From IMG/VR virus record IMGVR_UViG_3300042542_005523: a stretch of DNA of 64,000 nt, one strand, 5' to 3'. The position numbers and the translations under genes were made by a program. The stretch's first letter is position 1. The number at the start of each line of letters is the position of its first letter. The notes beneath the pieces are model-generated. The model saw only the letters and a list, made by a program, of their open reading frames with translations, ran no database searches and was not told the origin of the DNA. Source of the stretch: a virus (Duplodnaviria; Caudoviricetes). Of this stretch, positions 8,373 through 33,288 are shown piece after piece.

Positions 8373-8386
8373 TTTTTATTTTATAG

Positions 8387-8395: not shown

Positions 8396-8418
8396 GATAG
8401 AAAAATCTCTATTCAATA

Positions 8419-9312: not shown

Positions 9313-9313
9313 T

Positions 9314-10063: not shown

Positions 10064-10083
10064 TGTTCTATATTATCAACGCG

Positions 10084-10092
10084 GATATATAG
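10084..10092 (+). promoter_or_regulatory. Candidate late promoter GATATATAG upstream of the fibre operon
   Basis: Exact GATATATAG, also found at 35710, 40923, 53827 and 53857. Confidence 0.6.
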
Positions 10093-10115
10093 ATCAGATA
10101 AAATATTCGTGCCTC

Positions 10116-10409: not shown

Positions 10410-10426
10410 AAATAGAAATATAAAAA

Positions 10427-11521
10427 ATGGCATTTAGAATTCAGATTAGAAGAGACACCTCTGTTAGGTGGGCAGTTAACAACCCAGTACTACTTTCAGC
10501 AGAGTTAGGTTATGAAACTGACACTGATCTCCTTAAGATTGGAGATGGCACTACCCTATGGAATGACCTTGATTACTGGAACGGTAATCTAACTATAGAA
10601 GTAAACGGCACGCAGGTTATACAAGGGGCTGGTACCCTTAACTTTACTGGTGGTGTTTCTGCTAGTGCCACAGGAGGAAGCGTAACACTCGACTTCTCTG
10701 GAGTTGGCGGGTTAACAGGACCAACAGGGCCTAGTGCTAATATTGGAGTTTTCGATGCTACTACATTTGTAGCAGGTGCAACAGGCATACAGTTCACTGG
10801 CGGTGGGGTTAGCGTATCTTCATCTGGAAATGTTGCTGTTGTTTCGGTAAGTGCTTTACAAAACTCACTTTATAACGAGACTGTAAGGTATCTAATCGAT
10901 AACACAACAGCTCAGTATTCAGGATCACCTATCATAGGAACAAATGATAAGATTACTATATGCTCTAGCGGTAACATTTATGCTAATAGATCCTGGACTA
11001 GATCTGGAACTACACTGACAGTAAACTCTACTTCTCATGGATTGTTAGCAGGTGATGGTGTTGTAATTAGAAATGGTGCTTCTACAGATAGCTACAATTT
11101 CTATATAGTCCAAACCGCAAGCGCTAATTCTTTTACTGTGACTGTTGCTAACTCCGGTGGTGCATCAGGAAGCGGATTGACATACATACCTAGCTTTTCT
11201 GTTACCTCCTGGTCGTCTGGAACATCTATGACCCTAAGCGCACCAACAGTTGGTAATGCCCAACTTCTTTCGGCTACTGTCTGTACTGTTATGAGCACTT
11301 CCTCTTTCTATGTTACAATAGACGGTGAGGGAATAAGCAATGGTGCTGGTGTTAATGCCTCGGTTAGAACAATGAATCCACCTGTTGTTTCTGCACAAAC
11401 TACCTCTAACGGTAATGATCTAGCAGCATCGTGTACTCTGGATGTAAATTCTCCGTATCAAACCTTTGTGTTGCAAAGTTTAACTGCAGCTGTTGAAAAT
11501 CTAGTAAAAATGGTATTCTAA
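10427..11521 (+). CDS. Tail-fibre-associated protein with Mtd-N/hyaluronidase-like N-terminal motif
   Basis: MAFRIQIRRDT..W...NPVL...ELGYETDT..LKIGDGTT.WNDLDY is the common phage fibre attachment motif; short GPTGP; Gly/Ser/Thr-rich beta region. Confidence 0.7.
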   Translation: MAFRIQIRRDTSVRWAVNNPVLLSAELGYETDTDLLKIGDGTTLWNDLDYWNGNLTIEVNGTQVIQGAGTLNFTGGVSASATGGSVTLDFSGVGGLTGPTGPSANIGVFDATTFVAGATGIQFTGGGVSVSSSGNVAVVSVSALQNSLYNETVRYLIDNTTAQYSGSPIIGTNDKITICSSGNIYANRSWTRSGTTLTVNSTSHGLLAGDGVVIRNGASTDSYNFYIVQTASANSFTVTVANSGGASGSGLTYIPSFSVTSWSSGTSMTLSAPTVGNAQLLSATVCTVMSTSSFYVTIDGEGISNGAGVNASVRTMNPPVVSAQTTSNGNDLAASCTLDVNSPYQTFVLQSLTAAVENLVKMVF

Positions 11522-11527
11522 AAATTA

Positions 11528-14500
11528 ATGCTTACGGATAACCTGTTTAGTGGAATTGTAGATTTTACCGACGGTAGCTTAAGCAGCTTAGTTGGTATCA
11601 CAGGTAGTGCGACATACGGGTCCAGTGTGATAACTGGAGTTGATAGCACGATCATACCTGGATTAACTGCTGGCCTTTCGGTTAGAGCACTACCAGAAGG
11701 AATTCTCAATCCCTCTACAACGATAGTTTCTTTGGGCTCTAACACGGTAGAGTTTTCTAACCCGGTAGGTTACACCGGATCCGCTAATTTTTATATAGAA
11801 CTAAGCAGCGGCAATTATCTTTTAAACAACGCTTTATTTGTTGACGTTAACAACATCTATAATGTTGGTGATATACCAGACTATCAAATAGGAGCCACTG
11901 GAGGATTGGTAATTTCTCCTTTTGCGATCTATACTCAGGGAAGATATAACGATCAGAAGAATCTTAAAGCCATATATGAAAAGTACATAATAACAAAAGT
12001 ACTTTCAAGGAACACAGTAACAAATAGATTTAGCGCTATAGTTACTTGGGGTTTTTCAGGATCTGCACCGACGAGTGTTAATACTGGACAGACAGTTCTA
12101 CCTATAACTCAGCTATCCCCGAATAATTTATTGCCTCCCATAATAGACTATAGAGCATTTTCTTATAAGAATCTTCCGGAAGGACAGCCATTTAATCAGG
12201 AGATATTAAAGGTCTTAGATTCTGGAGGAAGCGGAGGAAGCGGAGGAAGCGGAACTTCAGGAACAAGTGGTAGTTCAGGATCTTCAGGAACTTCAGGAAC
12301 AAGTGGTAGTTCAGGCACTAGCGGCACAGACGGTTCATCGGGAACTAGCGGTACAGATGGTTCAAGTGGAACTTCAGGAACTAGCGGTACGGATGGTTCA
12401 TCAGGAACTTCAGGAACATCAGGATCCAGTGGTTCTTCAGGTGAATCGGGTTCAAGTGGTTCATCAGGTGAATCGGGAACTTCAGGATCCAGTGGTTCAT
12501 CAGGTGAATCAGGTTCAAGTGGTTCTTCAGGTGAATCAGGAACTTCAGGAACTTCAGGATCGAGTGGAACATCGGGATCCAGTGGAACATCAGGTGAATC
12601 GGGATCCAGTGGAACATCAGGTGAATCAGGAACTTCAGGAACTTCAGGATCGAGTGGAACTTCGGGATCCAGTGGAACATCAGGTGAATCAGGAACAAGT
12701 GGTTCTTCAGGTGAATCAGGAACTTCAGGATCGAGTGGAACTTCGGGATCCAGTGGAACATCAGGTGAATCAGGAACAAGTGGTTCTTCAGGTGAATCAG
12801 GAACTTCAGGATCGAGTGGAACATCGGGATCCAGTGGAACATCAGGTGAATCAGGAACTTCAGGAACTTCAGGATCAAGTGGAACATCAGGATCCAGTGG
12901 TTCTTCAGGTGAATCGGGAACAAGTGGTTCTTCAGGGACATCTGGTTCAAGTGGTAGTGCGGGTTCATCTGGTTCAACGGGTACTTCAGGTTCTTCTGGA
13001 ACAGGAGGTTCATCAGGTAGCTCTGGTTCAAGTGGAAGTTCAGGTAGTACAGGTTCCTCAGGTTCAAGTGGTAGTTCAGGAACATCTGGCTCAACAGGTA
13101 CTTCAGGAACTTCAGGTTCAAGTGGGTCTTCAGGTAGTTCAGGAAGTAGCGGAACATCTGGTTCTAGTGGAAGTGTTGGAACTTCTGGTACATCAGGTTC
13201 ATCAGGTAGTGTAGGTACTAGTGGAACATCAGGTACATCAGGTACATCAGGTAGTGTAGGTACTAGTGGTACATCTGGTAGTTCAGGTTCTAGCGGTTCG
13301 TCAGGTAATAGTGGAAGTTCAGGTACAAGTGGAACATCAGGTACTTCTGGCTCTAGTGGAAGTGTTGGAACTTCTGGTACATCAGGAAGTTCAGGTTCTT
13401 CAGGTACTAGTGGTAGTTCTGGCTCTACTGGCACATCGGGTACTAGTGGCTCATCAGGAAGTGTAGGTACAAGTGGAAGTTCAGGTTCTAGCGGTTCATC
13501 AGGAAGTTCAGGTATTAGTGGTTCTTCAGGTTCTAGCGGAAGCGCTGGAAGCTCAGGAAGTACAGGTACATCAGGAACTAGTGGAACTTCAGGTAGTTCT
13601 GGTTCAGTAGGAACTTCAGGTACATCAGGTAGTTCTGGTTTATCGGGAAGCAGTGGTTCTTCAGGAAGTACTGGAACATCAGGAAGTACTGGAACTTCAG
13701 GTTCAAGTGGTAGTGTTGGGACTAGTGGTACATCGGGTTCAAGTGGTTCTTCAGGAAGTGTTGGTACGTCTGGTTCATCTGGAAGTGCAGGTACATCAGG
13801 AACTTCAGGGTCATCAGGAAGTTCAGGTACAAGCGGAACATCAGGAACTGGAGGAACTTCAGGTTCAAGTGGTAGTGTTGGGACTAGTGGTACATCAGGA
13901 ACAAGTGGTTCTTCAGGTACATCAGGTAGTTCAGGTTCAAGTGGTTCATCGGGAAGTTCAGGTTCAAGTGGTTCATCGGGTACATCAGGTAGTACTGGTA
14001 CTAGTGGTAGTAGTGGAACAAGCGGAACGTCGGGTTCATCAGGTTCTGCGGGAAGTAGTGGTTCATCAGGTAGTGTTGGAACATCTGGTTCAAGTGGTAG
14101 TTCAGGTAGTTATGGTTCATCAGGTACATCTGGCTCAAGTGGTAGCTCTGGTTCAACAGGTTCGTCAGGTAGTAGTGGTATAACTGGGTCTTCAGGTACG
14201 AGTGGTAGTTCTGGCACATCAGGTTCATCTGGTAGTTCAGGTTCTTCAGGTAGTACTGGTTCATCAGGAACTAGCGGAACATCAGGAACATCAGGTACAA
14301 GTGGTAGTTCAGGTTCTACAGGAACATCGGGTTCTACAGGAACATCGGGTTCATCAGGTAGTAGTGGCTCAAGTGGAAGTTCAGGATTGACAGGTTCATC
14401 AGGAACATCGGGTTCATCAGGGACATCGGGTTCATCAGGTAGTTCTGGTTCAAGTGGTAGTAGCGGAAGTACAGGGTCTTCGGGCACAAGTGGTAGTTCT

Positions 14501-17500
14501 GGTACATCAGGTTCATCAGGAAGTTCAGGTTCATCGGGTTCTAGCGGTAGTGTTGGAACTTCGGGAACAAGTGGTTCAAGTGGAAGTTCAGGTTCTTCAG
14601 GAAGTGTAGGAACATCAGGTACAAGTGGTAGTTCAGGTTCGTCTGGCTCAAGTGGAAATACAGGTTCAAGTGGAACGAGTGGTTCATCAGGTACATCTGG
14701 CTCAAGTGGTAGTTCAGGTTCGTCTGGCTCAAGTGGTTCAAGTGGAACGAGTGGTTCATCAGGTACATCTGGCTCAAGTGGTAGTTCAGGTTCGTCTGGC
14801 TCAAGTGGTTCAAGTGGAAGTTCAGGTTCTTCAGGAAGTGTAGGAACATCAGGTACAAGTGGTAGTTCAGGTTCTTCAGGTAGTTCAGGTGTTAATGGTT
14901 CTTCAGGGACTAGTGGTAGTTCGGGAACATCTGGTTCTTCAGGAAGTTCGGGTTCATCAGGTTCTAGTGGTAGTTCAGGAACATCTGGCTCAAGCGGGTC
15001 TTCTGGTTCAAGTGGAAGTACTGGTTCTTCAGGAAGTGCAGGTACATCGGGTAGTGTAGGAACTAGCGGTAGTTCTGGTTCATCTGGTTCTTCAGGTAGT
15101 ACTGGCTCAAGTGGTACTTCAGGTTCATCAGGTAGTGTAGGTACTAGTGGTTCATCAGGTAGTTCTGGTTCAAGTGGTAGTAGCGGAAGTACAGGGTCTT
15201 CTGGTACAAGTGGGAACTCAGGAACATCTGGTACAAGCGGAAGTACAGGGTCTTCTGGTACAAGCGGTTCATCAGGTAGTACTGGGTCAAGTGGAAGTTC
15301 AGGAAGTAGTGGTAGTGTAGGAACAAGTGGTTCTTCAGGGACATCTGGCTCAACAGGTACTTCAGGAACATCAGGTTCAAGTGGGTCTTCAGGTAGTTCG
15401 GGTTCATCAGGAAGTTCAGGTACAAGCGGAACATCAGGTTCAGTAGGAACAAGTGGTTCATCGGGAAGTTCAGGGTCAACAGGAACTTCAGGTTCAAGTG
15501 GGTCTTCAGGTAGTTCAGGAAGTAGCGGAACATCTGGTTCTAGTGGAAGTGTTGGAACTTCTGGCACATCAGGAACAAGTGGTTCATCGGGAAGTTCTGG
15601 TTCTGCCGGTACAAGTGGAAGTGTAGGAACAAGTGGTACTTCAGGTTCATCTGGCTCAAGTGGAAGTTCAGGTTCAACAGGTAGTTCAGGTACTAGCGGT
15701 TCATCTGGAAGTTCTGGTTCTGCAGGTACAAGTGGAAGTTCTGGTTCTTCAGGTAGTACGGGTTCAAGAGGAACTAGCGGAACATCAGGAAGTTCTGGTT
15801 CTGTTGGAACTAGTGGAACGTCTGGTTCAGTAGGAACTAGCGGAACATCTGGAACAAGTGGTTCATCAGGTTCTAGCGGTAGCGCTGGAAGCTCAGGAAG
15901 TGTAGGTACTTCAGGTACTAGTGGAAGCTCAGGAAGTGTAGGAACATCTGGTTCAAGTGGTACTACTGGTACCTCAGGAACATCAGGTAGTTCAGGTTCA
16001 TCTGGTAGTGTTGGTACATCAGGAACTTCGGGTACTAGCGGAACATCAGGTTCTAGCGGTTCGTCAGGAAATAGTGGAAGTTCAGGTACAAGTGGAACAT
16101 CGGGTTCAACTGGGTCTTCAGGCTCAAGTGGTAGTTCGGGAAGTGTTGGTACATCAGGAAGTAGTGGTTCTTCAGGTTCTAGTGGTAGTACTGGAAGCTC
16201 AGGAAGTACAGGTACATCGGGTTCAAGTGGAACTTCAGGTTCTTCAGGTACTAGCGGAACATCGGGAACTAGTGGTAGTTCAGGTTCAGTTGGTACATCA
16301 GGAACTTCGGGTTCAAGTGGTAGTTCTGGTTCTACTGGTACATCGGGTACTAGCGGTTCTTCAGGTTCTAGCGGTAGCGCTGGAAGCTCAGGAAGTACAG
16401 GTACATCAGGTACTAGTGGTAGTTCTGGTAGCGTAGGAACATCGGGTACATCAGGTAGTTCTGGTTCATCGGGTAGTTCTGGCTCAACAGGCTCGTCAGG
16501 TAGTAGTGGAACTTCTGGTTCATCTGGCTCAAGCGGAAGTGTTGGAACATCTGGTTCGTCAGGAAGTACTGGCTCAAGTGGTTCATCAGGAAGTACAGGA
16601 ACATCAGGTAGTGCTGGTTCTTCTGGCTCAAGTGGTAGTTCAGGTTCAAGTGGAAGTACTGGAACATCAGGTAGTAGTGGAACATCAGGTTCATCAGGTT
16701 CTAGCGGTAGTACTGGAAGCTCAGGAACGTCAGGTTCTGTAGGTACAAGCGGGACATCAGGAACTTCGGGAAGTACTGGTTCTAGTGGAAGTTCAGGAAC
16801 AAGTGGTTCATCTGGAAGTTCAGGGTCATCAGGAAGTACTGGTACATCAGGAACATCTGGTTCTTCAGGTAGTTCAGGTTCTAGCGGAAGTTCAGGTTCA
16901 AGTGGAACTAGTGGTAGTTCAGGAAGTTCTGGTTCATCGGGTAGTACAGGTTCTTCAGGTAGTTCAGGTTCTAGCGGAAGTTCAGGTTCAAGTGGAACTA
17001 GTGGTAGTTCAGGAAGTTCTGGTTCATCGGGTAGTACAGGTACTTCAGGAAGCTCAGGTTCAAGTGGAACTAGTGGTTCTTCAGGGTCTAGCGGTTCATC
17101 GGGTTCTAGTGGAAGTTCAGGGTCATCTGGTAGTACAGGTTCAAGAGGAACTAGCGGTTCTTCAGGAACATCAGGTACTAGTGGTACATCAGGAAGTGTT
17201 GGGACAAGTGGTACGTCAGGAAGTACTGGAACATCAGGTTCAAGTGGTAGTGTAGGTACATCGGGAACTTCAGGTTCATCTGGAAGTACGGGTAGTTCAG
17301 GTACTAGCGGTAGTAGTGGTTCATCAGGAAGTTCTGGCTCGACTGGTAGTTCAGGAAGTTCTGGAACTTCAGGTTCTAGTGGTAGTTCGGGAACATCAGG
17401 GTCATCAGGTAGCGTAGGTACTAGCGGTTCTTCTGGTTCAAGTGGAAGTTCAGGTTCTAGCGGAAGTACAGGGTCAAGCGGAACTAGTGGAAGTTCAGGT

Positions 17501-20500
17501 TCATCTGGAAGTGTAGGAACAAGTGGAACCTCAGGTTCAGTAGGTACAAGTGGTACATCAGGAAGTTCAGGCTCAAGTGGTAGTACGGGTTCATCTGGTA
17601 CTAGCGGCTCTTCGGGAAGTACTGGGTCATCTGGAAGTTCAGGTTCAACAGGAACTAGCGGTTCTTCAGGAACATCAGGTAGTAGCGGTTCTAGTGGTAG
17701 TGCTGGTAGTTCAGGTTCTGCGGGTACAAGTGGAAGTGTAGGAACATCTGGGACTTCTGGTTCAAGTGGGTCATCAGGTTCTAGTGGGAGTGTTGGAACT
17801 TCTGGTACATCAGGAACAAGTGGTTCGTCAGGTTCTAGCGGTAGTGCTGGAAGCTCAGGAAGTACTGGTTCATCAGGTTCTGCGGGAAGTGCTGGTACAT
17901 CAGGGGTTAATGGTTCTTCAGGAACATCAGGTTCTGCTGGCTCAAGTGGAAGTTCAGGTTCTTCAGGTAGTGTTGGTACTTCTGGTACAAGCGGAACTTC
18001 AGGTTCATCAGGTAGTGCTGGCTCGTCGGGGTCTAGCGGTTCTGTTGGTACTTCAGGTAGTAGTGGAACATCTGGAAGCTCTGGCTCAAGTGGTAGTGCG
18101 GGGTCATCAGGGAGTACTGGTACAAGTGGAAGTTCGGGTTCAACTGGTACTTCAGGTAGTTCAGGAACATCTGGTACTTCAGGTTCAAGTGGAAGTAGTG
18201 GCTCATCAGGTTCTTCAGGAAGTGCTGGTACAAGTGGAACATCTGGCTCATCAGGTTCAACGGGTAGTTCAGGAAGTGCTGGTACAAGTGGAACATCAGG
18301 TTCTAGTGGAAGTAGTGGTAGTTCAGGGTCATCTGGTTCTGCGGGTACATCAGGAAGTAGTGGAAGTACAGGTTCTTCTGGTTCAAGTGGGACATCAGGT
18401 TCAACGGGTAGTTCAGGAAGTAGTGGAACAAGTGGTTCATCTGGTACTTCAGGTTCATCTGGCTCAAGTGGTAGTACGGGTTCTTCAGGAAGCTCAGGCT
18501 CAAGCGGAAGTTCTGGTTCAACAGGTTCTAGAGGAACAAGTGGAACTTCTGGTTCGTCAGGAACTAGCGGAACGTCAGGAACATCTGGTTCATCAGGAAG
18601 TTCGGGTTCAAGTGGTTCGTCTGGGTCTACAGGAACAAGTGGTTCGGCTGGTACATCAGGAAGTAGTGGAAGTTCAGGGTCTAGTGGTAGTGCTGGAAGT
18701 TCAGGGTCTAGTGGTAGTGCTGGAAGTTCAGGTTCAGTAGGTACAAGTGGTTCTTCAGGAACATCAGGTTCTAGTGGGTCTTCAGGAAGTTCTGGTAGTT
18801 CAGGTTCAGCTGGTACAAGTGGAAGTGTAGGAACATCTGGTTCTTCAGGAAGTTCTGGTTCAAGTGGTTCATCAGGAAGTTCAGGTTCTACAGGTTCAAG
18901 AGGAACATCGGGTACTAGTGGTACATCAGGTAGTAGTGGTTCTAGTGGTAGTGCTGGTACTTCAGGTTCAGTAGGGACAAGTGGCTCTTCAGGAAGTGCT
19001 GGTAGTTCAGGTTCATCGGGTAGTAGCGGAACATCAGGTTCGTCAGGAACAAGTGGTTCGTCAGGGTCTAGCGGTAGTACTGGAAGTTCAGGAAGTTCTG
19101 GCTCTGTTGGTACATCAGGTAGTTCGGGGTCATCCGGAAGCTCAGGAAGTAGTGGTTCATCAGGTACATCGGGAGCTAACGGAAGTTCAGGAACATCTGG
19201 GTCTAGTGGAAGTTCAGGAAGTAGTGGTTCATCAGGCTCAAGTGGGTCTGCTGGTACTTCAGGTGCTAACGGAAGTTCAGGAACAAGTGGTTCGTCAGGT
19301 TCTAGCGGAAGTGCTGGAAGCTCAGGAAGTTCGGGAACATCAGGTAGTAGTGGTAGTTCAGGGTCCTCAGGGAGTACAGGTTCAAGAGGAACAAGCGGTT
19401 CTTCAGGTACATCAGGAACCTCAGGAAGTGCTGGTTCATCAGGTTCTTCAGGTTCAAGTGGAAGTGTAGGAACAAGTGGTAGTTCTGGTTCTGCGGGTTC
19501 TAGTGGAACTTCAGGTTCAACAGGAACATCAGGTAGTTCAGGTTCAAGTGGAGTAACTGGTTCTTCAGGTACTAGCGGTTCTTCAGGAAGTTCTGGGTCA
19601 TCAGGGTCTAGTGGAAGTGTTGGAACTAGCGGTTCATCTGGTACAAGTGGTTCATCAGGTAGTTCAGGAAGTTCGGGTTCAAGCGGTAGTAGTGGAAGTT
19701 CAGGGTCAACAGGTTCAAGAGGAACATCAGGAAGTACTGGTACAAGTGGTTCGGCTGGTACCTCAGGTTCAAGTGGAAGTTCAGGTAGTAGTGGATTAAG
19801 TGGTGTTGATGGTACTAATGGAACATCTGGAAGTTCTGGTTCAAGTGGTGTTAACGGAAGTTCAGGAAGTAGTGGTACATCTGGTTCTAGTGGAAGTTCT
19901 GGCTCTGCTGGTAGTTCAGGTTCTGCAGGTACAAGTGGAAGTGTTGGAACATCAGGTTCTTCAGGGAGTTCTGGTTCAAGTGGTTCTTCAGGAAGTTCTG
20001 GCTCAACAGGTTCAAGAGGAACAAGTGGTTCTTCAGGGACTTCAGGAAGTTCAGGTTCAAGTGGAAGTAGTGGAAGTTCAGGGTCATCAGGTGTTAGTGG
20101 TTCTTCAGGGACATCAGGTTCAAGTGGAAGTTCAGGTTCTTCTGGTTCAAGTGGAAGTTCAGGAACATCTGGCTCAACAGGAACTTCAGGGTCATCAGGT
20201 TCTAGTGGAAGTACTGGTACTTCAGGTAGTTCAGGAACATCAGGGTCTAGCGGTAGTTCGGGGTCATCTGGAAGCTCAGGAAGTAGTGGTTCATCAGGTA
20301 CATCGGGAGCTAACGGAAGTTCAGGTACAAGTGGTTCTTCAGGAAGTAGTGGTAGTTCAGGGTCATCTGGCTCTGCTGGTACATCAGGTGCTAATGGAAG
20401 TTCAGGAACATCTGGTTCAAGTGGTAGTGCTGGAAGCTCAGGAAGTAGTGGTAGTTCTGGTTCCGTTGGAACTTCAGGTTCTAGCGGTTCATCAGGAAGT

Positions 20501-23500
20501 GCTGGTACGAGTGGAAGTTCAGGAAGTAGTGGCTCATCAGGTTCTTCAGGAAGTACAGGTTCAAGAGGAACATCAGGTACTTCGGGAACATCAGGTACAT
20601 CAGGTGCCAATGGAAGTAGTGGAACATCAGGTAGTAGTGGTTCTAGCGGAAGTGCTGGAAGCTCAGGAAGTTCAGGTTCAACTGGAACATCTGGTTCTTC
20701 AGGAAGTAGTGGTTCTAGTGGTAGTTCAGGAAGTACAGGTTCTTCTGGTTCAAGTGGAACATCAGGTTCGTCAGGAAGTTCCGGCTCATCAGGATCAAGT
20801 GGGTCTGCTGGAACTTCAGGGGCTAACGGAAGTTCAGGAACAAGTGGTTCTTCAGGTTCTAGTGGTAGTGCTGGAAGCTCAGGAAGTTCTGGTACATCGG
20901 GTGCTAACGGAAGTTCAGGAACATCAGGTAGTAGTGGTTCTAGTGGAAGTGCTGGTTCATCAGGAAGTTCAGGTTCAACTGGTACATCTGGTTCTTCAGG
21001 AAGTAGTGGTTCTAGTGGAAGCGCTGGTTCATCAGGAAGTACAGGTTCAAGAGGAACATCAGGTACATCAGGAACATCAGGAAGTGCTGGTTCATCAGGT
21101 TCAAGTGGAAGTTCAGGAACATCAGGAGCTAACGGAAGTTCGGGAACATCCGGTACAAGTGGAAGTTCAGGTTCTTCGGGAAGTAGTGGTAGTTCTGGCT
21201 CTGCTGGTACATCAGGTGCTAATGGAAGTAGCGGAACATCAGGTAGCTCCGGTTCATCTGGCTCAAGTGGAAGTAGTGGTAGTTCAGGTTCATCAGGAAC
21301 AAGTGGGGCTAATGGAAGTTCAGGTACAAGTGGTAGTTCTGGAACATCGGGCTCAAGTGGGTCGTCAGGTAGTTCAGGCTCAAGTGGAAGTTCTGGAATT
21401 AACGGTTCATCAGGAACTTCAGGTTCAAGTGGTAGCACAGGGTCTAGTGGTAGTAGTGGTTCTTCAGGTAGTTCAGGAACATCAGGAAGTAGTGGGACAT
21501 CGGGAAGTTCTGGTTCAAGCGGAAGTTCTGGTTCATCAGGAAGCACAGGTTCAAGAGGAACAAGTGGTTCTTCAGGAACATCAGGAAGTGCTGGTTCATC
21601 AGGTTCAAGTGGTAGTACTGGAAGCTCGGGTACTTCTGGTTCATCAGGAAGTTCTGGCTCAAGCGGATTAACAGGTTCTTCAGGAACAAGCGGTTCGAGT
21701 GGTTCTTCAGGAAGTACAGGTTCTAGCGGAAGTGCTGGAAGCTCAGGAAGTTCAGGTACATCAGGTGCTAATGGAAGCAGTGGAACCTCTGGGTCAAGTG
21801 GTTCATCAGGAAGTGCTGGCTCATCAGGAAGTTCAGGTTCAACTGGTTCTTCGGGAAGTAGTGGTTCTAGTGGAAGCGCTGGTTCATCAGGAAGTACAGG
21901 TTCAAGAGGTACTAGTGGTACATCAGGGACATCAGGGACATCAGGAAGTGCTGGTTCATCAGGTACATCAGGTGCTAATGGAAGCAGTGGAACCTCTGGG
22001 TCAAGTGGTTCATCAGGAAGTGCTGGCTCATCAGGTTCAAGTGGAAGTTCAGGAACATCGGGAAGTGCTGGCTCATCAGGTTCTAGTGGAAGTTCAGGAA
22101 CATCAGGAACAAGTGGAAGTTCAGGTTCATCAGGAAGTTCTGGAATTACTGGTTCATCGGGAACTTCAGGTTCTAGCGGAAGTGCTGGCAGCTCAGGAAG
22201 TGGAGGTTCATCGGGAACATCAGGTTCTTCGGGAACAAGTGGAAGTGCTGGTTCATCAGGAAGTTCTGGAATTACTGGTTCATCAGGTACTTCTGGTTCA
22301 TCGGGTAGTTCAGGTTCAGCAGGAAGTTCAGGAACATCAGGTTCATCAGGAAGTGCAGGTTCAAGTGGGATATCAGGAAATGACTCTTCTAACTCAGGTA
22401 GATGGGGTTACGCATCAGGTGGAGGGGTTCCTGGTTCGGGAAGATTTAGCGCAAGTAGTTCGACACTTTCATCTGTAATTGGTTTTGCAGTTAATGACCT
22501 TGATATTAATTCTACCGATTACGATGAATGGTGGTTAACAGCTGAGGGGTTAGTATCTGGAGGAAATGGGATATACTTACAAGTAACTCAAGTAGGCAGT
22601 AATAATATAATAGGTCTTTATTCAGTTTCCGCGATAAATGATAATACCACATATTGGTCAATAACAGTTAAATTCATAGCTGGGAGTGGTTCTATGACCA
22701 ATGCCGAAAATTATACAATATCTTGGGTTTACAATGGTGCTGATGGTCCTTCTGGTTCAAGTGGAACATCAGGTTCAAGCGGAAGTTCTGGAAGTTCAGG
22801 CTCTAGTGGTATTGCTGGTAGTTCGGGAACATCTGGTTCTTCAGGTTCAAGCGGAAGTTCTGGAAGTTCAGGTTCAAGTGGTATTGCTGGTAGTTCGGGA
22901 ACATCTGGTTCTTCAGGAAGTAGTGGTTCTACAGGTTCAAGAGGAACTAGCGGTTCTTCAGGTTCAAGTGGAAGCTCAGGTTCAAGCGGTTCTACAGGTT
23001 CAAGAGGAACTAGCGGTTCTTCAGGTTCAAGTGGAACTAGCGGTTCTTCAGGTTCAAGTGGAAGCTCAGGTTCAAGCGGTTCTACAGGTTCAAGAGGAAC
23101 TAGTGGGACATCTGGAACATCAGGTTCATCTGGAACATCATCAACGGTTTATGTGGGTAATGCTAATGGTGCAGGTATTACTAATGGTGCTAGAGGTTCT
23201 ATTTATTTAGGGGGAACACCTGTTGCCATGGTTGCGGTTACCGCAGGTGATTACGGAGGTGGTGCAACTGATTTTATGCCAGGATACCCAATGCCTGCAG
23301 GAACTGCAAGTAAAATGAGAGTTATTACAAGAAGTGCCAATCCTGCTCTAAATAGTTTAGAGGTCTATGTTGCTAATGCTACTACATCAACATTAGGTGC
23401 TAAAGTTACAATAGCCGCTGGGTCAGCCGCAGGAGTTTACACTACAGATGACGGAACAACAGTTACGTACTCAGTTGGTGATAGATTATATTGTATTGCT

Positions 23501-23575
23501 AAAAATCCTAATGTGGGGGGAGGAGCGACTTCCGCACAAATAACTACAGTATCATTTAATTTTACACCTAGCTAA
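11528..23575 (+). CDS. Giant (4015-aa) Ser/Thr-rich Gly-X-Y repeat fibre protein
   Basis: About 230-aa unique N-domain, about 3400 aa of G-(S/T)-(S/T/V/A) triplets, an embedded ~120-aa globular domain (~22375-22740), a further short repeat, and a ~140-aa C-terminal domain. Confidence 0.85.
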   Translation: MLTDNLFSGIVDFTDGSLSSLVGITGSATYGSSVITGVDSTIIPGLTAGLSVRALPEGILNPSTTIVSLGSNTVEFSNPVGYTGSANFYIELSSGNYLLNNALFVDVNNIYNVGDIPDYQIGATGGLVISPFAIYTQGRYNDQKNLKAIYEKYIITKVLSRNTVTNRFSAIVTWGFSGSAPTSVNTGQTVLPITQLSPNNLLPPIIDYRAFSYKNLPEGQPFNQEILKVLDSGGSGGSGGSGTSGTSGSSGSSGTSGTSGSSGTSGTDGSSGTSGTDGSSGTSGTSGTDGSSGTSGTSGSSGSSGESGSSGSSGESGTSGSSGSSGESGSSGSSGESGTSGTSGSSGTSGSSGTSGESGSSGTSGESGTSGTSGSSGTSGSSGTSGESGTSGSSGESGTSGSSGTSGSSGTSGESGTSGSSGESGTSGSSGTSGSSGTSGESGTSGTSGSSGTSGSSGSSGESGTSGSSGTSGSSGSAGSSGSTGTSGSSGTGGSSGSSGSSGSSGSTGSSGSSGSSGTSGSTGTSGTSGSSGSSGSSGSSGTSGSSGSVGTSGTSGSSGSVGTSGTSGTSGTSGSVGTSGTSGSSGSSGSSGNSGSSGTSGTSGTSGSSGSVGTSGTSGSSGSSGTSGSSGSTGTSGTSGSSGSVGTSGSSGSSGSSGSSGISGSSGSSGSAGSSGSTGTSGTSGTSGSSGSVGTSGTSGSSGLSGSSGSSGSTGTSGSTGTSGSSGSVGTSGTSGSSGSSGSVGTSGSSGSAGTSGTSGSSGSSGTSGTSGTGGTSGSSGSVGTSGTSGTSGSSGTSGSSGSSGSSGSSGSSGSSGTSGSTGTSGSSGTSGTSGSSGSAGSSGSSGSVGTSGSSGSSGSYGSSGTSGSSGSSGSTGSSGSSGITGSSGTSGSSGTSGSSGSSGSSGSTGSSGTSGTSGTSGTSGSSGSTGTSGSTGTSGSSGSSGSSGSSGLTGSSGTSGSSGTSGSSGSSGSSGSSGSTGSSGTSGSSGTSGSSGSSGSSGSSGSVGTSGTSGSSGSSGSSGSVGTSGTSGSSGSSGSSGNTGSSGTSGSSGTSGSSGSSGSSGSSGSSGTSGSSGTSGSSGSSGSSGSSGSSGSSGSSGSVGTSGTSGSSGSSGSSGVNGSSGTSGSSGTSGSSGSSGSSGSSGSSGTSGSSGSSGSSGSTGSSGSAGTSGSVGTSGSSGSSGSSGSTGSSGTSGSSGSVGTSGSSGSSGSSGSSGSTGSSGTSGNSGTSGTSGSTGSSGTSGSSGSTGSSGSSGSSGSVGTSGSSGTSGSTGTSGTSGSSGSSGSSGSSGSSGTSGTSGSVGTSGSSGSSGSTGTSGSSGSSGSSGSSGTSGSSGSVGTSGTSGTSGSSGSSGSAGTSGSVGTSGTSGSSGSSGSSGSTGSSGTSGSSGSSGSAGTSGSSGSSGSTGSRGTSGTSGSSGSVGTSGTSGSVGTSGTSGTSGSSGSSGSAGSSGSVGTSGTSGSSGSVGTSGSSGTTGTSGTSGSSGSSGSVGTSGTSGTSGTSGSSGSSGNSGSSGTSGTSGSTGSSGSSGSSGSVGTSGSSGSSGSSGSTGSSGSTGTSGSSGTSGSSGTSGTSGTSGSSGSVGTSGTSGSSGSSGSTGTSGTSGSSGSSGSAGSSGSTGTSGTSGSSGSVGTSGTSGSSGSSGSSGSTGSSGSSGTSGSSGSSGSVGTSGSSGSTGSSGSSGSTGTSGSAGSSGSSGSSGSSGSTGTSGSSGTSGSSGSSGSTGSSGTSGSVGTSGTSGTSGSTGSSGSSGTSGSSGSSGSSGSTGTSGTSGSSGSSGSSGSSGSSGTSGSSGSSGSSGSTGSSGSSGSSGSSGSSGTSGSSGSSGSSGSTGTSGSSGSSGTSGSSGSSGSSGSSGSSGSSGSTGSRGTSGSSGTSGTSGTSGSVGTSGTSGSTGTSGSSGSVGTSGTSGSSGSTGSSGTSGSSGSSGSSGSTGSSGSSGTSGSSGSSGTSGSSGSVGTSGSSGSSGSSGSSGSTGSSGTSGSSGSSGSVGTSGTSGSVGTSGTSGSSGSSGSTGSSGTSGSSGSTGSSGSSGSTGTSGSSGTSGSSGSSGSAGSSGSAGTSGSVGTSGTSGSSGSSGSSGSVGTSGTSGTSGSSGSSGSAGSSGSTGSSGSAGSAGTSGVNGSSGTSGSAGSSGSSGSSGSVGTSGTSGTSGSSGSAGSSGSSGSVGTSGSSGTSGSSGSSGSAGSSGSTGTSGSSGSTGTSGSSGTSGTSGSSGSSGSSGSSGSAGTSGTSGSSGSTGSSGSAGTSGTSGSSGSSGSSGSSGSAGTSGSSGSTGSSGSSGTSGSTGSSGSSGTSGSSGTSGSSGSSGSTGSSGSSGSSGSSGSTGSRGTSGTSGSSGTSGTSGTSGSSGSSGSSGSSGSTGTSGSAGTSGSSGSSGSSGSAGSSGSSGSAGSSGSVGTSGSSGTSGSSGSSGSSGSSGSAGTSGSVGTSGSSGSSGSSGSSGSSGSTGSRGTSGTSGTSGSSGSSGSAGTSGSVGTSGSSGSAGSSGSSGSSGTSGSSGTSGSSGSSGSTGSSGSSGSVGTSGSSGSSGSSGSSGSSGTSGANGSSGTSGSSGSSGSSGSSGSSGSAGTSGANGSSGTSGSSGSSGSAGSSGSSGTSGSSGSSGSSGSTGSRGTSGSSGTSGTSGSAGSSGSSGSSGSVGTSGSSGSAGSSGTSGSTGTSGSSGSSGVTGSSGTSGSSGSSGSSGSSGSVGTSGSSGTSGSSGSSGSSGSSGSSGSSGSTGSRGTSGSTGTSGSAGTSGSSGSSGSSGLSGVDGTNGTSGSSGSSGVNGSSGSSGTSGSSGSSGSAGSSGSAGTSGSVGTSGSSGSSGSSGSSGSSGSTGSRGTSGSSGTSGSSGSSGSSGSSGSSGVSGSSGTSGSSGSSGSSGSSGSSGTSGSTGTSGSSGSSGSTGTSGSSGTSGSSGSSGSSGSSGSSGSSGTSGANGSSGTSGSSGSSGSSGSSGSAGTSGANGSSGTSGSSGSAGSSGSSGSSGSVGTSGSSGSSGSAGTSGSSGSSGSSGSSGSTGSRGTSGTSGTSGTSGANGSSGTSGSSGSSGSAGSSGSSGSTGTSGSSGSSGSSGSSGSTGSSGSSGTSGSSGSSGSSGSSGSAGTSGANGSSGTSGSSGSSGSAGSSGSSGTSGANGSSGTSGSSGSSGSAGSSGSSGSTGTSGSSGSSGSSGSAGSSGSTGSRGTSGTSGTSGSAGSSGSSGSSGTSGANGSSGTSGTSGSSGSSGSSGSSGSAGTSGANGSSGTSGSSGSSGSSGSSGSSGSSGTSGANGSSGTSGSSGTSGSSGSSGSSGSSGSSGINGSSGTSGSSGSTGSSGSSGSSGSSGTSGSSGTSGSSGSSGSSGSSGSTGSRGTSGSSGTSGSAGSSGSSGSTGSSGTSGSSGSSGSSGLTGSSGTSGSSGSSGSTGSSGSAGSSGSSGTSGANGSSGTSGSSGSSGSAGSSGSSGSTGSSGSSGSSGSAGSSGSTGSRGTSGTSGTSGTSGSAGSSGTSGANGSSGTSGSSGSSGSAGSSGSSGSSGTSGSAGSSGSSGSSGTSGTSGSSGSSGSSGITGSSGTSGSSGSAGSSGSGGSSGTSGSSGTSGSAGSSGSSGITGSSGTSGSSGSSGSAGSSGTSGSSGSAGSSGISGNDSSNSGRWGYASGGGVPGSGRFSASSSTLSSVIGFAVNDLDINSTDYDEWWLTAEGLVSGGNGIYLQVTQVGSNNIIGLYSVSAINDNTTYWSITVKFIAGSGSMTNAENYTISWVYNGADGPSGSSGTSGSSGSSGSSGSSGIAGSSGTSGSSGSSGSSGSSGSSGIAGSSGTSGSSGSSGSTGSRGTSGSSGSSGSSGSSGSTGSRGTSGSSGSSGTSGSSGSSGSSGSSGSTGSRGTSGTSGTSGSSGTSSTVYVGNANGAGITNGARGSIYLGGTPVAMVAVTAGDYGGGATDFMPGYPMPAGTASKMRVITRSANPALNSLEVYVANATTSTLGAKVTIAAGSAAGVYTTDDGTTVTYSVGDRLYCIAKNPNVGGGATSAQITTVSFNFTPS
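12221..23140 (+). repeat. Low-complexity 9-nt-period (Gly-X-Y) coding repeat
   Basis: Units such as ggttcaagt, ggaacatca, ggtagttca with shuffled synonymous codons; interrupted only by the unique domain at ~22375-22740. Confidence 0.95.
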
Positions 23576-23820
23576 TGGAATACACATACAAACAAATAGA
23601 AAATGGCGATTGGCAATTACTTGTTATTGTAAATGAAATACCTATTGTGTTCATTCTATCTGAAGACCTTATAGGTACTGAAGATACACCTCCTAGGGGT
23701 TTACCTGAACATATACAAATGATACAAGATTTTAAAGATGTTTCTAAACTAGAATATTTTATTCAACTTTTAATAGATAACCCTGGTACAGCATTTTCTA
23801 TATATAATAATTTTGAATGA
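23575..23820 (+). CDS. Small hypothetical protein (possible fibre chaperone)
   Basis: 81-aa ORF; its ATG overlaps the fibre stop (TAATG). Confidence 0.6.
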   Translation: MEYTYKQIENGDWQLLVIVNEIPIVFILSEDLIGTEDTPPRGLPEHIQMIQDFKDVSKLEYFIQLLIDNPGTAFSIYNNFE

Positions 23821-23844
23821 TTCTGAAGTACTATAAAACTATAA

Positions 23845-24240: not shown

Positions 24241-24245
24241 CAAAC

Positions 24246-24274
24246 GAAACAAAGATACCTCTTAATTGTATAAT
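24246..24274 (+). promoter_or_regulatory. Candidate middle promoter GAAAC-N18-TATAAT upstream of the glycosylation cluster
   Basis: GAAAC 24246-24250, TATAAT 24269-24274. This places the real start at GTG 24290 rather than TTG 24266. Confidence 0.7.
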
Positions 24275-24289
24275 AAGGAAAGGTACTTC

Positions 24290-31327: not shown

Positions 31328-31328
31328 T

Positions 31329-32048: not shown

Positions 32049-32049
32049 T

Positions 32050-33287: not shown

Positions 33288-33288
33288 T

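What the first reader, a model, noticed from the sequence alone, without database searches (positions are those of the whole stretch)
12221..23140. About 3400 residues of unbroken Gly-X-Y made almost only of Gly/Ser/Thr
Seen: Gly occupies every third position across the repeat, including odd triplets (G-L-S, G-V-D, G-A-N, G-S-R), with essentially no Pro or charge. Synonymous codons are heavily shuffled, which argues for a real, maintained sequence rather than an assembly loop. Inference: it is either a Pro-free collagen-like triple helix (about 0.29 nm per residue gives roughly 1 micrometre, far longer than a normal fibre) or a polyglycine-II helix bundle. The flanking globular N-, internal and C-domains suggest an anchored, trimerising fibre with a tip adhesin.
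Basis: partly seen in the sequence, partly recalled or inferred. Interest (0 to 1): 0.75.

Follow-up and report, generated by a model that had tools for sequence, protein, structure and literature searches.

The report
Micrometre-long proline-free collagen-like phage fibre
An uncultured lake-water giant phage encodes a 4,015-residue fibre whose stalk is 1,129 unbroken Gly-Ser/Thr-Ser triplets, most likely a sugar-coated three-chain collagen-type rope about one micrometre long. It is inherited as one swappable block together with its own sugar-adding enzymes.

Summary
ORF 11528-23575 (+) encodes 4,015 aa. Gly sits at every third residue for 1,129 consecutive triplets (nt 12224-22384). A 117-aa globular domain, 45 more triplets and a 144-aa C-terminal knob follow. 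The main run has no Pro and 0.8% charged residues.

It is a real, selected coding repeat, not a simple loop: the longest exact DNA repeat is 107 bp. No record spans it, so the total length is unverified.

My reading is a collagen-type trimeric virion fibre:
- Orthologues with the same 232-aa N-terminal domain carry ordinary Pro-containing collagen stalks of 13-25 triplets, or unrelated distal modules.
- The knob models as a TNF/C1q-like jelly roll and is predicted to trimerise.
- A conserved 81-aa gene follows the knob.

Everything from the end of the N-domain to about 35390, that is the stalk, the knob and an 11-kb glycosylation island ending in a TibC-type protein O-glycosyltransferase, is one swapped cassette. 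A polyglycine-II bundle is unlikely.

Patches of the repeat DNA are 96-100% identical to fibres of an unrelated phage lineage. This points to exchange between phages or to assembly chimerism.

This scan has already found the same class (Pro-free Gly-Ser/Thr-Ser phage fibres with a TibC-like enzyme) on other DNA. This is the longest case.

The triple helix, the glycosylation, the attachment site and virion membership are inferred, not shown.

The parts
11528..23575 (+). Giant fibre gene, 4,015 aa (330.7 kDa unmodified, pI 4.7)
   Evidence: ORF list and translation. The start MLTDNLFSG matches the start of all N-domain homologues.
11528..12223 (+). N-terminal conserved domain (residues 1-232), the presumed virion anchor
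   Evidence: 20 homologues at 48-95% identity, all N-terminal, with swapped distal parts. The AF2 model is beta-rich with pLDDT 69.9. No Pfam or PHROG hit. The best fold match covers only residues 19-93: Z 8.9 to the phage Bridgette capsid decoration protein.
12224..22384 (+). Main Gly-X-Y run: 1,129 uninterrupted triplets (residues 233-3619); X = Ser 751 / Thr 330; Y = Ser 910; no Pro
   Evidence: It is regionally differentiated: GES only in the first 77 triplets, GSV mostly at triplets 105-650, and GAN and GSR mostly in the last third.
12937..19980 (+). Central hypervariable part of the run. It is not collinear with the near-identical relative and is patchily shared with unrelated phages' fibres.
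   Evidence: blastn against IMGVR_UViG_3300042569_002280. Patches of 172-859 bp at 95.8-100% identity occur in L012 and L014-L017. 20 lake-water runs hold 54-88% of its 31-mers.
22385..22735 (+). Internal globular domain (residues 3620-3736) between two collagen-like runs
   Evidence: No Pfam or PHROG hit. Homologous domains sit between collagen runs in P0006 (E 0.002), L012 and the G002 fibre. The nearest Atlas clusters are viral, one of them 85% PF01391.
22736..23140 (+). Second Gly-X-Y run, 45 triplets (residues 3737-3871), 1 Pro
   Evidence: Pfam Collagen PF01391 scores 67.1 bits against a cut-off of 27.2 on residues 3600-4015.
23141..23575 (+). C-terminal knob (residues 3872-4015): TNF/C1q-like jelly roll, predicted trimer
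   Evidence: AF2 pLDDT 86.4. Foldseek: 4-1BBL E 3.7e-4, F-BclA C-terminal domain 4.8e-4. VIA: Z 8.4 to 4-1BBL, 8.1 to phage 1358 RBP, 6.9 to BclA. Family of 29 representatives, always C-terminal on fibre-like proteins. Trimer prediction.
23575..23820 (+). 81-aa ORF overlapping the fibre stop (TAATG); conserved partner of the knob, candidate fibre chaperone or accessory
   Evidence: It follows the knob in every locus that has one, at 55-59% identity in L004-L007 and 40% in L002. No Pfam or PHROG hit.
24266..35424 (+). Glycosylation island, 10 ORFs: a GT4 + FkbM methyltransferase + DegT-like fusion, FkbM methyltransferase, hexapeptide acyltransferase, GT2, methyltransferases, and a GT4-TibC fusion
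   Evidence: Pfam and NCBIfam. GC 28-32% and GC3 0.22, against 0.33 for core genes. Present in the giant-fibre relative L003 at 97% identity and absent from the syntenic slot in L002 and L009.
33289..35424 (+). GT4 fused to a TibC/Aah-type protein O-glycosyltransferase (BAHT family)
   Evidence: TIGR04414 scores 266 bits (cut-off 200), E 4.9e-79. PDB 4RAP TibC E 3.4e-50.
10427..11521 (+). Mtd_N-type fibre gene ending 6 nt before the giant gene; conserved neighbour
   Evidence: PF18454 48.6 bits; PHROG tail fibre and spike families. Present in L002, L009 and L010.
35749..38256 (+). T4 gp13/14-like neck (head-closure) protein; the right-hand anchor of the variable slot
   Evidence: PF11649 and PHROG 679. 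Homology with relatives resumes at window 35380-35397.

Best explanation
The gene encodes a modular virion fibre of a distant T4-like lake phage.

Architecture:
- A conserved 232-aa N-terminal domain fixes it to the particle. The attachment site is unresolved: the gene sits where T4 has wac, next to the neck genes.
- The C-terminal TNF/C1q-like knob trimerises, probably helped by the 81-aa protein encoded right behind it. It would set the register from which three chains zip up, C to N, into a collagen-type triple helix.
- At 0.286 nm per residue the 1,129 + 45 triplets give about 1.0 micrometre.

Stabilisation: the stalk has no proline and almost no charge. I propose that the helix is stabilised and solubilised by dense O-glycosylation of its roughly 2,070 Ser/Thr. 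The enzymes would be those of the adjacent 11-kb island, led by a cytoplasmic TibC/Aah-type Ser-O-glycosyltransferase fused to a GT4.

Function: the knob, and possibly the glycan coat, would make first contact with the host or its envelope, so the long flexible tether enlarges the capture radius.

Shown here: the sequence pattern; homology and modular swapping; co-inheritance of the fibre and the island as one cassette; the enzyme's family membership.

Inferred: the triple helix, glycosylation of this substrate, trimer nucleation, virion location and function.
For: (1) Strict constraint. Gly is present in 1,174 of 1,174 triplets while Gly third-codon positions vary freely (GGT/GGA/GGG/GGC = 583/428/69/55). 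X and Y tolerate about 4% and 12% residues other than Ser/Thr.

(2) Same slot, ordinary collagen. Orthologues with 87-91% identical N-domains carry 13-25-triplet Pro-containing collagen runs that are PF01391-positive (P0006-P0009). The window's second run also passes PF01391 (67.1 bits against 27.2).

(3) Knob.
- AF2 pLDDT is 86.4 and the fold is a TNF/C1q/BclA-type jelly roll.
- Three copies of residues 3737-4015 gave ipSAE 0.79 against a best control of 0.00.
- That mark was reached by 21 of 30 proteins solved as pairs of one chain and by 0 of 23 solved as single chains.
- The runs agree in at least 63% of contacts and the partner pLDDT is at least 58.
- Confident contacts fall only within residues 3871-4014.
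- TNF-like trimers are solved structures, so this pass may come from memory.

(4) The knob plus 81-aa gene pair is conserved across 6 loci.

(5) Cassette. Relatives are collinear up to the end of the N-domain and again from window 35380-35397. The giant-fibre relative keeps the island at 97% identity, whereas L002 (394-aa fibre) and L009 (496-aa fibre) have none.

(6) The TibC-type enzyme scores 266 bits against a cut-off of 200, and PDB 4RAP gives E 3.4e-50. An unrelated lineage with a fibre that shares the repeat also has one: G004, 263.8 bits.

(7) Long tracts recur in independent assemblies. Two contigs have 658 and 656 triplets. L012 has 492 + 571 triplets around a single 1-nt frame break.

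(8) Structural context: gp15-like gene, Mtd_N fibre, neck protein, TerL, sheath.

(9) Literature. Glycosylating Thr turns the random-coil peptide (Gly-Pro-Thr)10 into a triple helix (as cited in PMC11923368). BclA is a glycosylated collagen-like protein (PMC8968730).
Against: - No proline and 0.8% charged residues. The stabilisers known for bacterial and phage collagens (Pro at X, salt bridges; PMC3368898, PMC11923368) are absent, so an unmodified helix may not be stable.
- No record spans the repeat. The only near-identical relative has a different middle part (288 + 592 triplets with an extra 146-aa domain).
- Patches of the middle part are 96-100% identical to fibres of an unrelated phage lineage, so the assembled path could be partly chimeric.
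- The N-domain has no identifiable family or clear fold match, so virion attachment is only assumed.
- TibC/Aah are known to act on beta-helical autotransporter repeats, not on Gly-X-Y.
Confidence: 0.6

Rival explanations
1. The fibre is real, but its length and order are partly an assembly product. The de Bruijn path through the repeat switched between co-occurring phages' fibre genes, so the true run is shorter or differently composed. This is not exclusive of the main explanation.
For: - Logan contigs of 4 runs break at 12284-12387 and 23074-23110, and only 130-515-bp pieces lie inside.
- The middle 7 kb is not shared with the otherwise 95-98% identical relative.
- Patches of 172-859 bp at 95.8-100% identity occur in contigs that lack this N-domain, this knob and any shared flanking protein.
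- A unitig inside a shared patch (15535-15895) has 1.5-1.6 times the flank depth.
Against: - About 88% of 31-mers are unique, the longest exact repeat is 107 bp, and no 127-mer repeats.
- Window-only interior unitigs match with 0 mismatches at flank-like depth in three runs: X1 28.3 and 28.7 against 27.5; X2 21.6 and 23.4 against 19.9.
- The reading frame and the Gly phase are never broken over 10.2 kb, which random path switching would often disturb by non-multiples of 9 nt.
- Two independent assemblies of another lineage agree on 658 and 656 triplets, and L012 shows more than 1,060.
Confidence: 0.25
2. The stalk is not a triple helix. It is an extended, intrinsically disordered, mucin-like Ser/Thr brush that is heavily O-glycosylated and acts as a hydrated, protease-resistant coat or spacer.
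For: - It is 61% Ser + Thr, has no Pro or charge pairs, and lies next to a glycosylation island.
- The complex prediction gave no confident contacts in the Gly-X-Y part.
Against: - A disordered brush has no reason to keep Gly at 1,174 of 1,174 third positions while X and Y vary.
- Orthologues have canonical collagen at the same place.
- A trimerising TNF-like knob lies directly C-terminal to the repeat, which is the standard collagen nucleation layout.
Confidence: 0.12
3. The repeat folds into a polyglycine-II helix bundle or sheet, as in snow-flea antifreeze protein or the phage S16 gp38 adhesin, rather than a collagen supercoil.
For: Tripeptide periodicity with small residues is compatible with PGII geometry. 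A relative lineage has PF21722 glycine-rich-domain proteins next to its fibre.
Against: - From my knowledge of those structures, PGII bundles need short strands joined by turns and Gly at more than one position per triplet on the packed faces.
- Here Gly is 33.5%, only 6 triplets have a second Gly, and no break or turn motif occurs in 3,387 residues.
- The Pfam Collagen model, not a glycine-rich-domain model, matches.
Confidence: 0.05
4. The protein is not a virion part. It would be made during infection for another purpose, for example a secreted or surface matrix protein or a decoy.
For: No proteomic evidence. The N-domain has no known family.
Against: - It is embedded in the late structural block between the gp15-like and neck genes and co-oriented 6 nt behind an Mtd_N fibre gene.
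- The knob family sits at the C-termini of typical tail-fibre-like proteins.
- No signal peptide-like N-terminus is evident in the sequence (by eye only).
Confidence: 0.05

Closest known systems
BclA / F-BclA collagen-like glycoproteins of Bacillus exosporium and endospore appendages (PDB 3TYJ, 9H38)
   Same: The layout is an N-terminal anchor, a collagen-like stalk of strain-variable length rich in hydroxy-amino acids and O-glycosylated by dedicated enzymes, and a C-terminal TNF/C1q-like trimeric knob. The knob here matches F-BclA (Foldseek E 4.8e-4) and BclA (Z 6.9).
   Different: BclA triplets are mostly Gly-Pro-Thr, and its stalk is tens of triplets long (my knowledge; PMC8968730). Here there is no Pro, Ser dominates, there are 1,129 triplets, the context is a phage, and the lead enzyme is TibC-type. 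There is no sequence homology.
Phage and prophage collagen-like tail fibres (Smith et al. 1998 'Bacteriophage collagen'; E. coli O157 EPclA-D, PMC3368898; P-SSM2 orf028, PMC1079782)
   Same: These are phage fibre proteins with Gly-X-Y stalks flanked by trimerisation modules. The collagen tracts lie in host-range genes that recombine.
   Different: EPcl collagen domains are Pro- and charge-rich, at most 322 aa, and were shown not to be glycosylated (PMC3368898). Here the run is 3,387 aa, Pro-free and nearly uncharged, with a linked glycosylation island.
TibC/TibA and Aah/AIDA-I autotransporter heptosylation (BAHT family, TIGR04414, PDB 4RAP)
   Same: The island's last gene is a member by score (266 bits against cut-off 200). 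It would be a cytoplasmic enzyme that loads many Ser residues of one repetitive adhesin encoded beside it.
   Different: The known substrates are 19-residue beta-helix repeats of secreted autotransporters. Here the presumed substrate is a Gly-X-Y stalk of a phage fibre, the enzyme is fused to a GT4, and it is accompanied by nine more sugar-modifying genes.
Glycosylation-stabilised collagen: Riftia cuticle collagen and (Gly-Pro-Thr(Gal))10 peptides (Bann et al. 2000, cited in PMC3368898 and PMC11923368)
   Same: The principle I invoke: O-glycans on hydroxy-amino acids replace hydroxyproline as the helix stabiliser.
   Different: Those sequences still have Pro at X and Thr at Y. Here X and Y are both Ser/Thr and nothing has been measured.
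T4 fibritin (wac) neck whiskers
   Same: The genomic position is directly beside the neck genes in a T4-like structural block. Both are trimeric fibres with a C-terminal folding nucleus.
   Different: Fibritin is an alpha-helical coiled coil of about 50 nm with a foldon. There is no sequence or fold similarity here (no Pfam hit).

Membership tests
Collagen triple-helix repeat proteins (PF01391 / IPR008160) | Gly at every third residue over many consecutive triplets | tested here: met
   1,129 + 45 triplets without exception.
Collagen triple-helix repeat proteins (PF01391 / IPR008160) | Match to the family HMM above its gathering score | tested here: met
   Residues 3600-4015 score 67.1 bits against 27.2, E 1.2e-18. 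The main run itself was not scanned on its own.
Collagen triple-helix repeat proteins (PF01391 / IPR008160) | Known sequence stabilisers of the helix (Pro/Hyp at X/Y, or Lys-Glu/Asp salt bridges) | tested here: not met
   0 Pro, 0 Lys and 28 charged residues in 3,387. This lowers the claim of a classical collagen, not the claim of a Gly-X-Y triple helix stabilised in another way.
Collagen triple-helix repeat proteins (PF01391 / IPR008160) | Adjacent trimerisation / nucleation domain | tested here: met
   In silico only. The knob is a TNF/C1q-like model. The three-copy prediction gave ipSAE 0.79 against a best control of 0.00. That mark was reached by 21 of 30 solved one-chain pairs and 0 of 23 single chains. 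Runs share at least 63% of contacts and pLDDT is at least 58. The pass may come from memory of solved TNF-like trimers.
Collagen triple-helix repeat proteins (PF01391 / IPR008160) | Triple-helical conformation (CD, melting, protease resistance, EM rods) | not testable with these tools
   Needs protein.
Polyglycine-II helix bundles (snow-flea AFP, S16 gp38 type) | Short PGII strands joined by turns; Gly at more than one position per triplet on packed faces | tested here: not met
   Gly is 33.5%, 6 triplets have a second Gly, and there is no interruption in 3,387 residues. The criteria are taken from my knowledge of those structures.
TNF / C1q-like trimeric jelly-roll heads (as in BclA, C1q, phage RBP heads) | Jelly-roll fold matching solved members over the whole domain | tested here: inconclusive
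   Foldseek E 3.7e-4 to 9e-4 with TM 0.44-0.52. VIA Z 8.4 (rmsd 3.2, 117 aligned) to 4-1BBL, 8.1 to phage 1358 RBP, 6.9 to BclA. CBMs and viral capsid jelly rolls score nearly as high.
BAHT protein O-heptosyltransferases (TIGR04414, TibC/Aah), for the island enzyme | Score above the curated equivalog cut-off; homology to solved TibC | tested here: met
   266 bits against 200; PDB 4RAP E 3.4e-50 over residues 391-705.
BAHT protein O-heptosyltransferases (TIGR04414, TibC/Aah), for the island enzyme | Acts on Ser of the neighbouring repetitive protein, with ADP-heptose as donor | not testable with these tools
   Only linkage is shown: fibre and island are gained and lost together, and a second lineage has both.
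T4 fibritin (wac) | Coiled-coil stalk with C-terminal foldon; Fibritin Pfam families | tested here: not met
   No Pfam family on the N-terminal, internal or C-terminal domains. The stalk is Gly-X-Y. Only the gene position resembles wac.

The most novel reading that the evidence does not exclude
This would be the longest uninterrupted collagen-type triple helix seen so far (1,129 triplets, about 1 micrometre). It would be held together not by proline or salt bridges but by phage-encoded O-glycosylation of Ser/Thr, and used as a 'fishing line' that multiplies a phage's capture radius. In addition, the Gly-Ser/Thr-Ser coding repeat would itself serve as common recombination substrate through which unrelated lake phages exchange stalk segments and whole fibre-plus-glycosylation cassettes.
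Probability: 0.3. Interest if true: 0.85.

Novelty: new variant of a known kind. Interest (0 to 1): 0.62.

Why it matters
Collagen folding theory holds that long helices need proline/hydroxyproline or salt-bridge 'clamps' (PMC11923368). A 3,387-residue helix with neither, paired with its own Ser/Thr glycosylation kit, would be a natural test of glycan-only stabilisation. It would also be a source of proline-free, sugar-tunable collagen materials.

For phage biology, it would extend virion glycosylation to a T4-like aquatic phage. Earlier notes in this scan say virion glycosylation has been published only for mycobacteriophages; I did not check that. It would also show a fibre an order of magnitude longer than T4's tail fibres (about 145 nm, from my knowledge).

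The 23-kb cassette (stalk + knob + chaperone-like gene + ten sugar genes) is swapped at a fixed junction behind a conserved anchor domain. This is a clear example of how host-range modules and their modifying enzymes travel together.

Tried and rejected
- Phage GenBank collection: no DNA match to window 1-11500 and no protein match to the N-domain or to residues 3620-4015. UvsX is at most 38% identical to any record.
- No whole genome is held for this window.
- Pfam and PHROGs: nothing for the N-domain, the internal domain, the knob or the 81-aa ORF. Pfam: nothing for the relative's extra 146-aa domain.
- The protein database search for 2,208-7,027-aa relatives of the N-domain found none. A search with the repeat itself found only proteins with runs of at most 67 triplets. 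Its sensitivity on low-complexity words is doubtful, so this is no proof of uniqueness.
- N-domain fold: no Foldseek PDB hit at E <= 0.001. BFVD and Atlas hits were weak (TM <= 0.41) and spread over collar, fibre, neck and baseplate proteins. BLASTP against the neck protein and the Mtd_N neighbour was negative. The attachment site therefore stays open.
- The complex prediction gave no confident contacts in the Gly-X-Y segment (3737-3870), so it says nothing about the helix.
- The T4 late-promoter motif TATAAATA is not enriched: 7 found against 7.4 expected, and none before the gene. No terminator-like site lies after the gene.
- No tRNA genes in the window.
- Logan contigs: no record spans the repeat, and parts without long pieces are uninformative.
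- dN/dS between the window and its relative: too few clean differences, because the differences cluster at the recombination borders.
- No higher-order periodicity of triplet types.
- The antisense ORF 14110-21546 (2,478 aa) and the other-frame ORFs inside the repeat are by-products of the composition.
- Literature searches for a TibC-type enzyme with phage collagen, or for proline-free phage collagen, found no description.

Full report
OBSERVATION

The window holds one ORF, 11528-23575 on the + strand, of 4,015 codons. Its layout is as follows:
- Residues 233-3619 (nt 12224-22384) have Gly at every third position for 1,129 consecutive triplets.
- A 117-residue non-repeat domain follows (nt 22385-22735).
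- Then come 45 more triplets (nt 22736-23140).
- A 144-residue C-terminal domain ends the protein.

The main run is 49.0% Ser, 33.5% Gly, 12.1% Thr, 2.0% Ala and 1.5% Val. It has no Pro, no Lys and 28 charged residues in all. GSS (564) and GTS (323) make up 79% of triplets.

'Unbroken' applies to 3,387 residues, and the quoted range also contains the internal domain.

IS IT A REAL, MAINTAINED SEQUENCE?

At the DNA level this is not a clean tandem array:
- Tandem Repeats Finder reports only short local arrays, mostly with 60-90% matches.
- The longest exact repeat is 107 bp.
- About 88% of 31-mer positions are unique, and no 127-mer recurs.

Gly codons vary freely at the third base (GGT 583, GGA 428, GGG 69, GGC 55) but never at the first two. 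Ser is written with both codon boxes. That is the signature of purifying selection on the protein pattern.

GC3 of the repeat is 0.11. The glycosylation island has 0.22 and the core genes 0.33.

EVIDENCE ON THE ASSEMBLED LENGTH

The evidence is mixed.

The 31-mers of the central 7 kb occur at 54-88% in 20 lake-water runs filed under 20 study codes. One of these may be the source, and they may belong to a few campaigns.

In three runs, Logan contigs cover the flanks and stop at 12284-12387 and 23074-23110. Inside the repeat there are only 130-515-bp pieces. These match with 0 mismatches, at depths close to the flanks. In X1, for example, they have 28.3 and 28.7 against 27.5. No record spans the repeat.

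A near-identical phage (IMGVR_UViG_3300042569_002280) is 95% identical over window 9001-12936 and 98% over 19981-26000. Its middle part, however, is different:
- It has 288 triplets, an extra 146-aa globular domain, then 592 triplets.
- The protein is 3,414 aa.

Unique 36-mers of the window's middle part recur in other contigs:
- L012 starts inside a repeat. It carries 492 + 571 triplets separated only by a 1-nt frame break. A domain homologous to the window's internal domain follows.
- Two IMG/VR contigs from different samples carry a 2,438-aa and a 2,432-aa fibre with 658 and 656 uninterrupted triplets.

So very long Gly-Ser/Thr-Ser tracts are reproducible across assemblies.

The IMG/VR contigs (those two plus a third of the same lineage) lack this N-domain and this knob. 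The fetched 20-kb region of one of them shares no flanking protein with the window. Even so, they share 172-859-bp patches at 95.8-100% identity with window 13916-18275. Either unrelated phages exchange stalk segments, or the assembly paths are partly chimeric.

My estimates: about 0.7 that the true gene has 1,000 or more uninterrupted triplets, and above 0.9 that it has more than 600.

CONTEXT

The contig is a distant T4-like phage. Its genes run as follows:
- UvsX, gp41-like helicase and the gp46/47-like nuclease;
- a PKD-domain protein;
- a gp15-like tail protein;
- an Mtd_N-type fibre gene;
- the giant gene, 6 nt further on;
- an 11-kb low-GC island of sugar enzymes;
- a gp13/14-like neck protein;
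- the large terminase and the sheath.

UvsX is at most 38% identical to anything in GenBank phages. The giant gene thus lies in the late structural block, next to the neck genes. In T4 that is the position of wac.

MODULAR ANATOMY

The first 232 residues form a conserved domain. Twenty homologues (48-95% identical) all carry it at the N-terminus, ending in ...VLDFGGSGG. After that point the proteins diverge completely:
- 655-657-aa forms have beta-rich domains.
- Forms of about 1,050 aa have Calx-beta domains.
- 393-496-aa forms have ordinary Pro-containing collagen repeats of 13-25 triplets (PF01391).

P0006 even has a collagen run, an internal domain and another collagen run, like the window, and the internal domains are weakly homologous.

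Syntenic loci are collinear with the window up to the end of the N-domain and again from window 35380-35397, just before the neck gene. Between these points the contents differ:
- L002 has a 394-aa fibre and nothing else.
- L009 has a 496-aa fibre and four unrelated small genes.
- The window and its close relative have the giant stalk, the knob, an 81-aa gene and the glycosylation island.

The stalk and its sugar enzymes are therefore one 23-kb cassette.

KNOB AND PARTNER

The C-terminal 144 residues belong to a small family of 29 representatives. It is always C-terminal, on fibre-like proteins of 179-798 aa.

The AF2 model (pLDDT 86.4) is a jelly roll. Its best matches are:

| Match | Score |
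|---|---|
| 4-1BBL | Foldseek E 3.7e-4; Z 8.4 |
| F-BclA tip domain | Foldseek E 4.8e-4 |
| Lactococcal phage 1358 receptor-binding head | Z 8.1 |
| BclA | Z 6.9 |
| C1q | Z 6.8 |

Carbohydrate-binding modules score nearly as high. The fold class is clear, but the family is not.

Three copies of residues 3737-4015 gave ipSAE 0.79 against a best control of 0.00:
- That mark was reached by 21 of 30 proteins solved as pairs of one chain and by 0 of 23 solved as single chains.
- The runs share at least 63% of contacts and the partner pLDDT is at least 58.
- Confident contacts lie only in residues 3871-4014.
- TNF-like trimers are well represented among solved structures, so this shows likeness rather than proof.

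An 81-aa ORF overlaps the fibre's stop codon (TAATG). It follows the knob in every locus that has one, at 55-59% identity, and at 40% after the divergent knob of L002. That is the usual place of a fibre chaperone or accessory protein.

COLLAGEN, PGII OR BRUSH?

Four points favour a collagen-type triple helix:
- the exact one-in-three Gly with no break over 3,387 residues;
- canonical collagen at the same slot in orthologues;
- a Pfam Collagen match on the second run (67.1 bits);
- a trimerising C-terminal knob in the classical nucleation position.

From my knowledge of their structures, PGII bundles use short strands, turns and more Gly. None of that is present here. A purely disordered mucin-like brush would not conserve Gly phase.

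The weak point is stability. The stabilisers documented for bacterial and phage collagens (Pro at X, charge pairs; PMC3368898, PMC11923368) are absent.

GLYCOSYLATION

The cassette's island encodes the following:
- a GT4-FkbM-DegT-like fusion;
- further methyltransferases;
- a hexapeptide acyltransferase;
- a GT2;
- a GT4 fused to a true BAHT enzyme (TIGR04414 266 bits against cut-off 200; TibC PDB 4RAP E 3.4e-50).

BAHT enzymes load many Ser residues of a repetitive adhesin in the cytoplasm. The independent fibre lineage also has such an enzyme (G004, 263.8 bits).

Glycosylated Thr converts (Gly-Pro-Thr)10 from a coil into a triple helix (cited in PMC11923368). BclA is a glycosylated collagen-like protein (PMC8968730). 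I therefore propose glycan-dependent stabilisation of the helix. This step is inferred.

HOW IT PROBABLY WORKS

1. Late in infection the 331-kDa chains are made and O-glycosylated in the cytoplasm.
2. Three knobs associate, possibly with help from the 81-aa protein.
3. The Gly-X-Y stalk zips up from the C-terminus to the N-terminus.
4. The N-domains dock on the particle.

At 0.286 nm per residue the two runs give about 970 + 39 nm. A rope this long is flexible, so it would act as a tether that enlarges the encounter radius, with the jelly-roll head and perhaps the glycans making first contact.

The attachment site is open. Synteny suggests the neck. The best fold match of N-domain residues 19-93 is the capsid decoration protein gp7 of phage Bridgette (Z 8.9, rmsd 2.0, 70 aligned residues; bioRxiv 10.1101/2022.09.09.507160). 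The same small barrel, however, occurs in tail and spike proteins.

COMPARISON AND NOVELTY

Collagen-like phage fibres have been known since 1998 (cited in PMC1079782). The studied examples are Pro- and charge-rich, have collagen domains of at most 322 residues, and are unglycosylated (PMC3368898). The prokaryotic collagen review I read does not mention serine at all.

The closest functional analogue is BclA/F-BclA: an anchor, a glycosylated collagen-like stalk of variable length, and a TNF-like head. There is no homology to it, and the chemistry differs.

Earlier notes of this scan report the same class on other genomes: Pro-free Gly-Ser/Thr-Ser phage fibres, often with a TibC-like enzyme. 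Another note reports the TibC-like gene of this genome. I checked only the enzyme assignment.

I rate this as a new variant of a known kind. It is the extreme in length, and it adds two findings: the fixed-junction 23-kb cassette, and repeat patches shared between unrelated phages.

LIMITS

Everything rests on metagenomic short-read assemblies and predictions. Helix formation, glycosylation of this substrate, virion membership, stoichiometry and host are all unknown.

Noticed in passing
window 23575-23820 (+): An 81-aa ORF overlaps the fibre's stop codon (TAATG). It is conserved directly after the knob domain in six loci of several phage lineages (40-59% identity) and has no Pfam or PHROG family. 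It is a candidate new fibre chaperone or accessory protein.
   Followed up: partly
window 13916-18275; L012, L014-L019: Patches of 172-859 bp of the Gly-Ser/Thr-Ser coding repeat are 95.8-100% identical to fibre genes of an unrelated phage lineage, which has a different N-terminus, C-terminus and flanking genes. This is either stalk-segment exchange between phages or assembly chimerism.
   Followed up: partly
window 12224-35390: A hypervariable slot lies between the conserved N-domain of the fibre and the neck gene. It is 0.8 kb in L002, 3.7 kb in L009 and 23 kb here. The left junction lies inside the fibre gene, right after ...VLDFGGSGG.
   Followed up: yes
L001 13271-13735 (IMGVR_UViG_3300042569_002280): The near-identical relative has an extra 146-aa globular domain inserted between two collagen-like runs, where the window has uninterrupted repeat. 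It has no Pfam family.
   Followed up: partly
L012 about 4420-4430 (Ga0114974_10000993): A single-base frame break lies inside an otherwise continuous run of more than 1,060 triplets. It may be a sequencing error or a real frameshift.
   Followed up: no
L019 13643-16352 and 2376-4052 (IMGVR_UViG_3300044611_001318): The 2,438-aa fibre of the other lineage is followed by three paralogous PF21722 glycine-rich-domain proteins and preceded by an HtrL_YibB-family protein.
   Followed up: no
window 12224-22384 versus 24266-35424 versus core genes: GC3 is 0.11 in the repeat, 0.22 in the glycosylation island and 0.33 in the core genes. The cassette has a codon style different from the rest of the phage.
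   Followed up: partly
window 35749-38256 (+): The T4 neck-protein homologue is 835 aa, far larger than the Pfam neck model of 278 positions, which matches only residues 335-391. The extra parts are unexplained.
   Followed up: no
window 14110-21546 (-): A 2,478-codon antisense open frame lies across the repeat. It is a by-product of the composition, not a gene.
   Followed up: partly
window 8419-9312 (+): A 297-aa protein with a C-terminal PKD (Ig-like) domain lies directly before the gp15-like gene. It is a possible decoration or adhesion protein.
   Followed up: no
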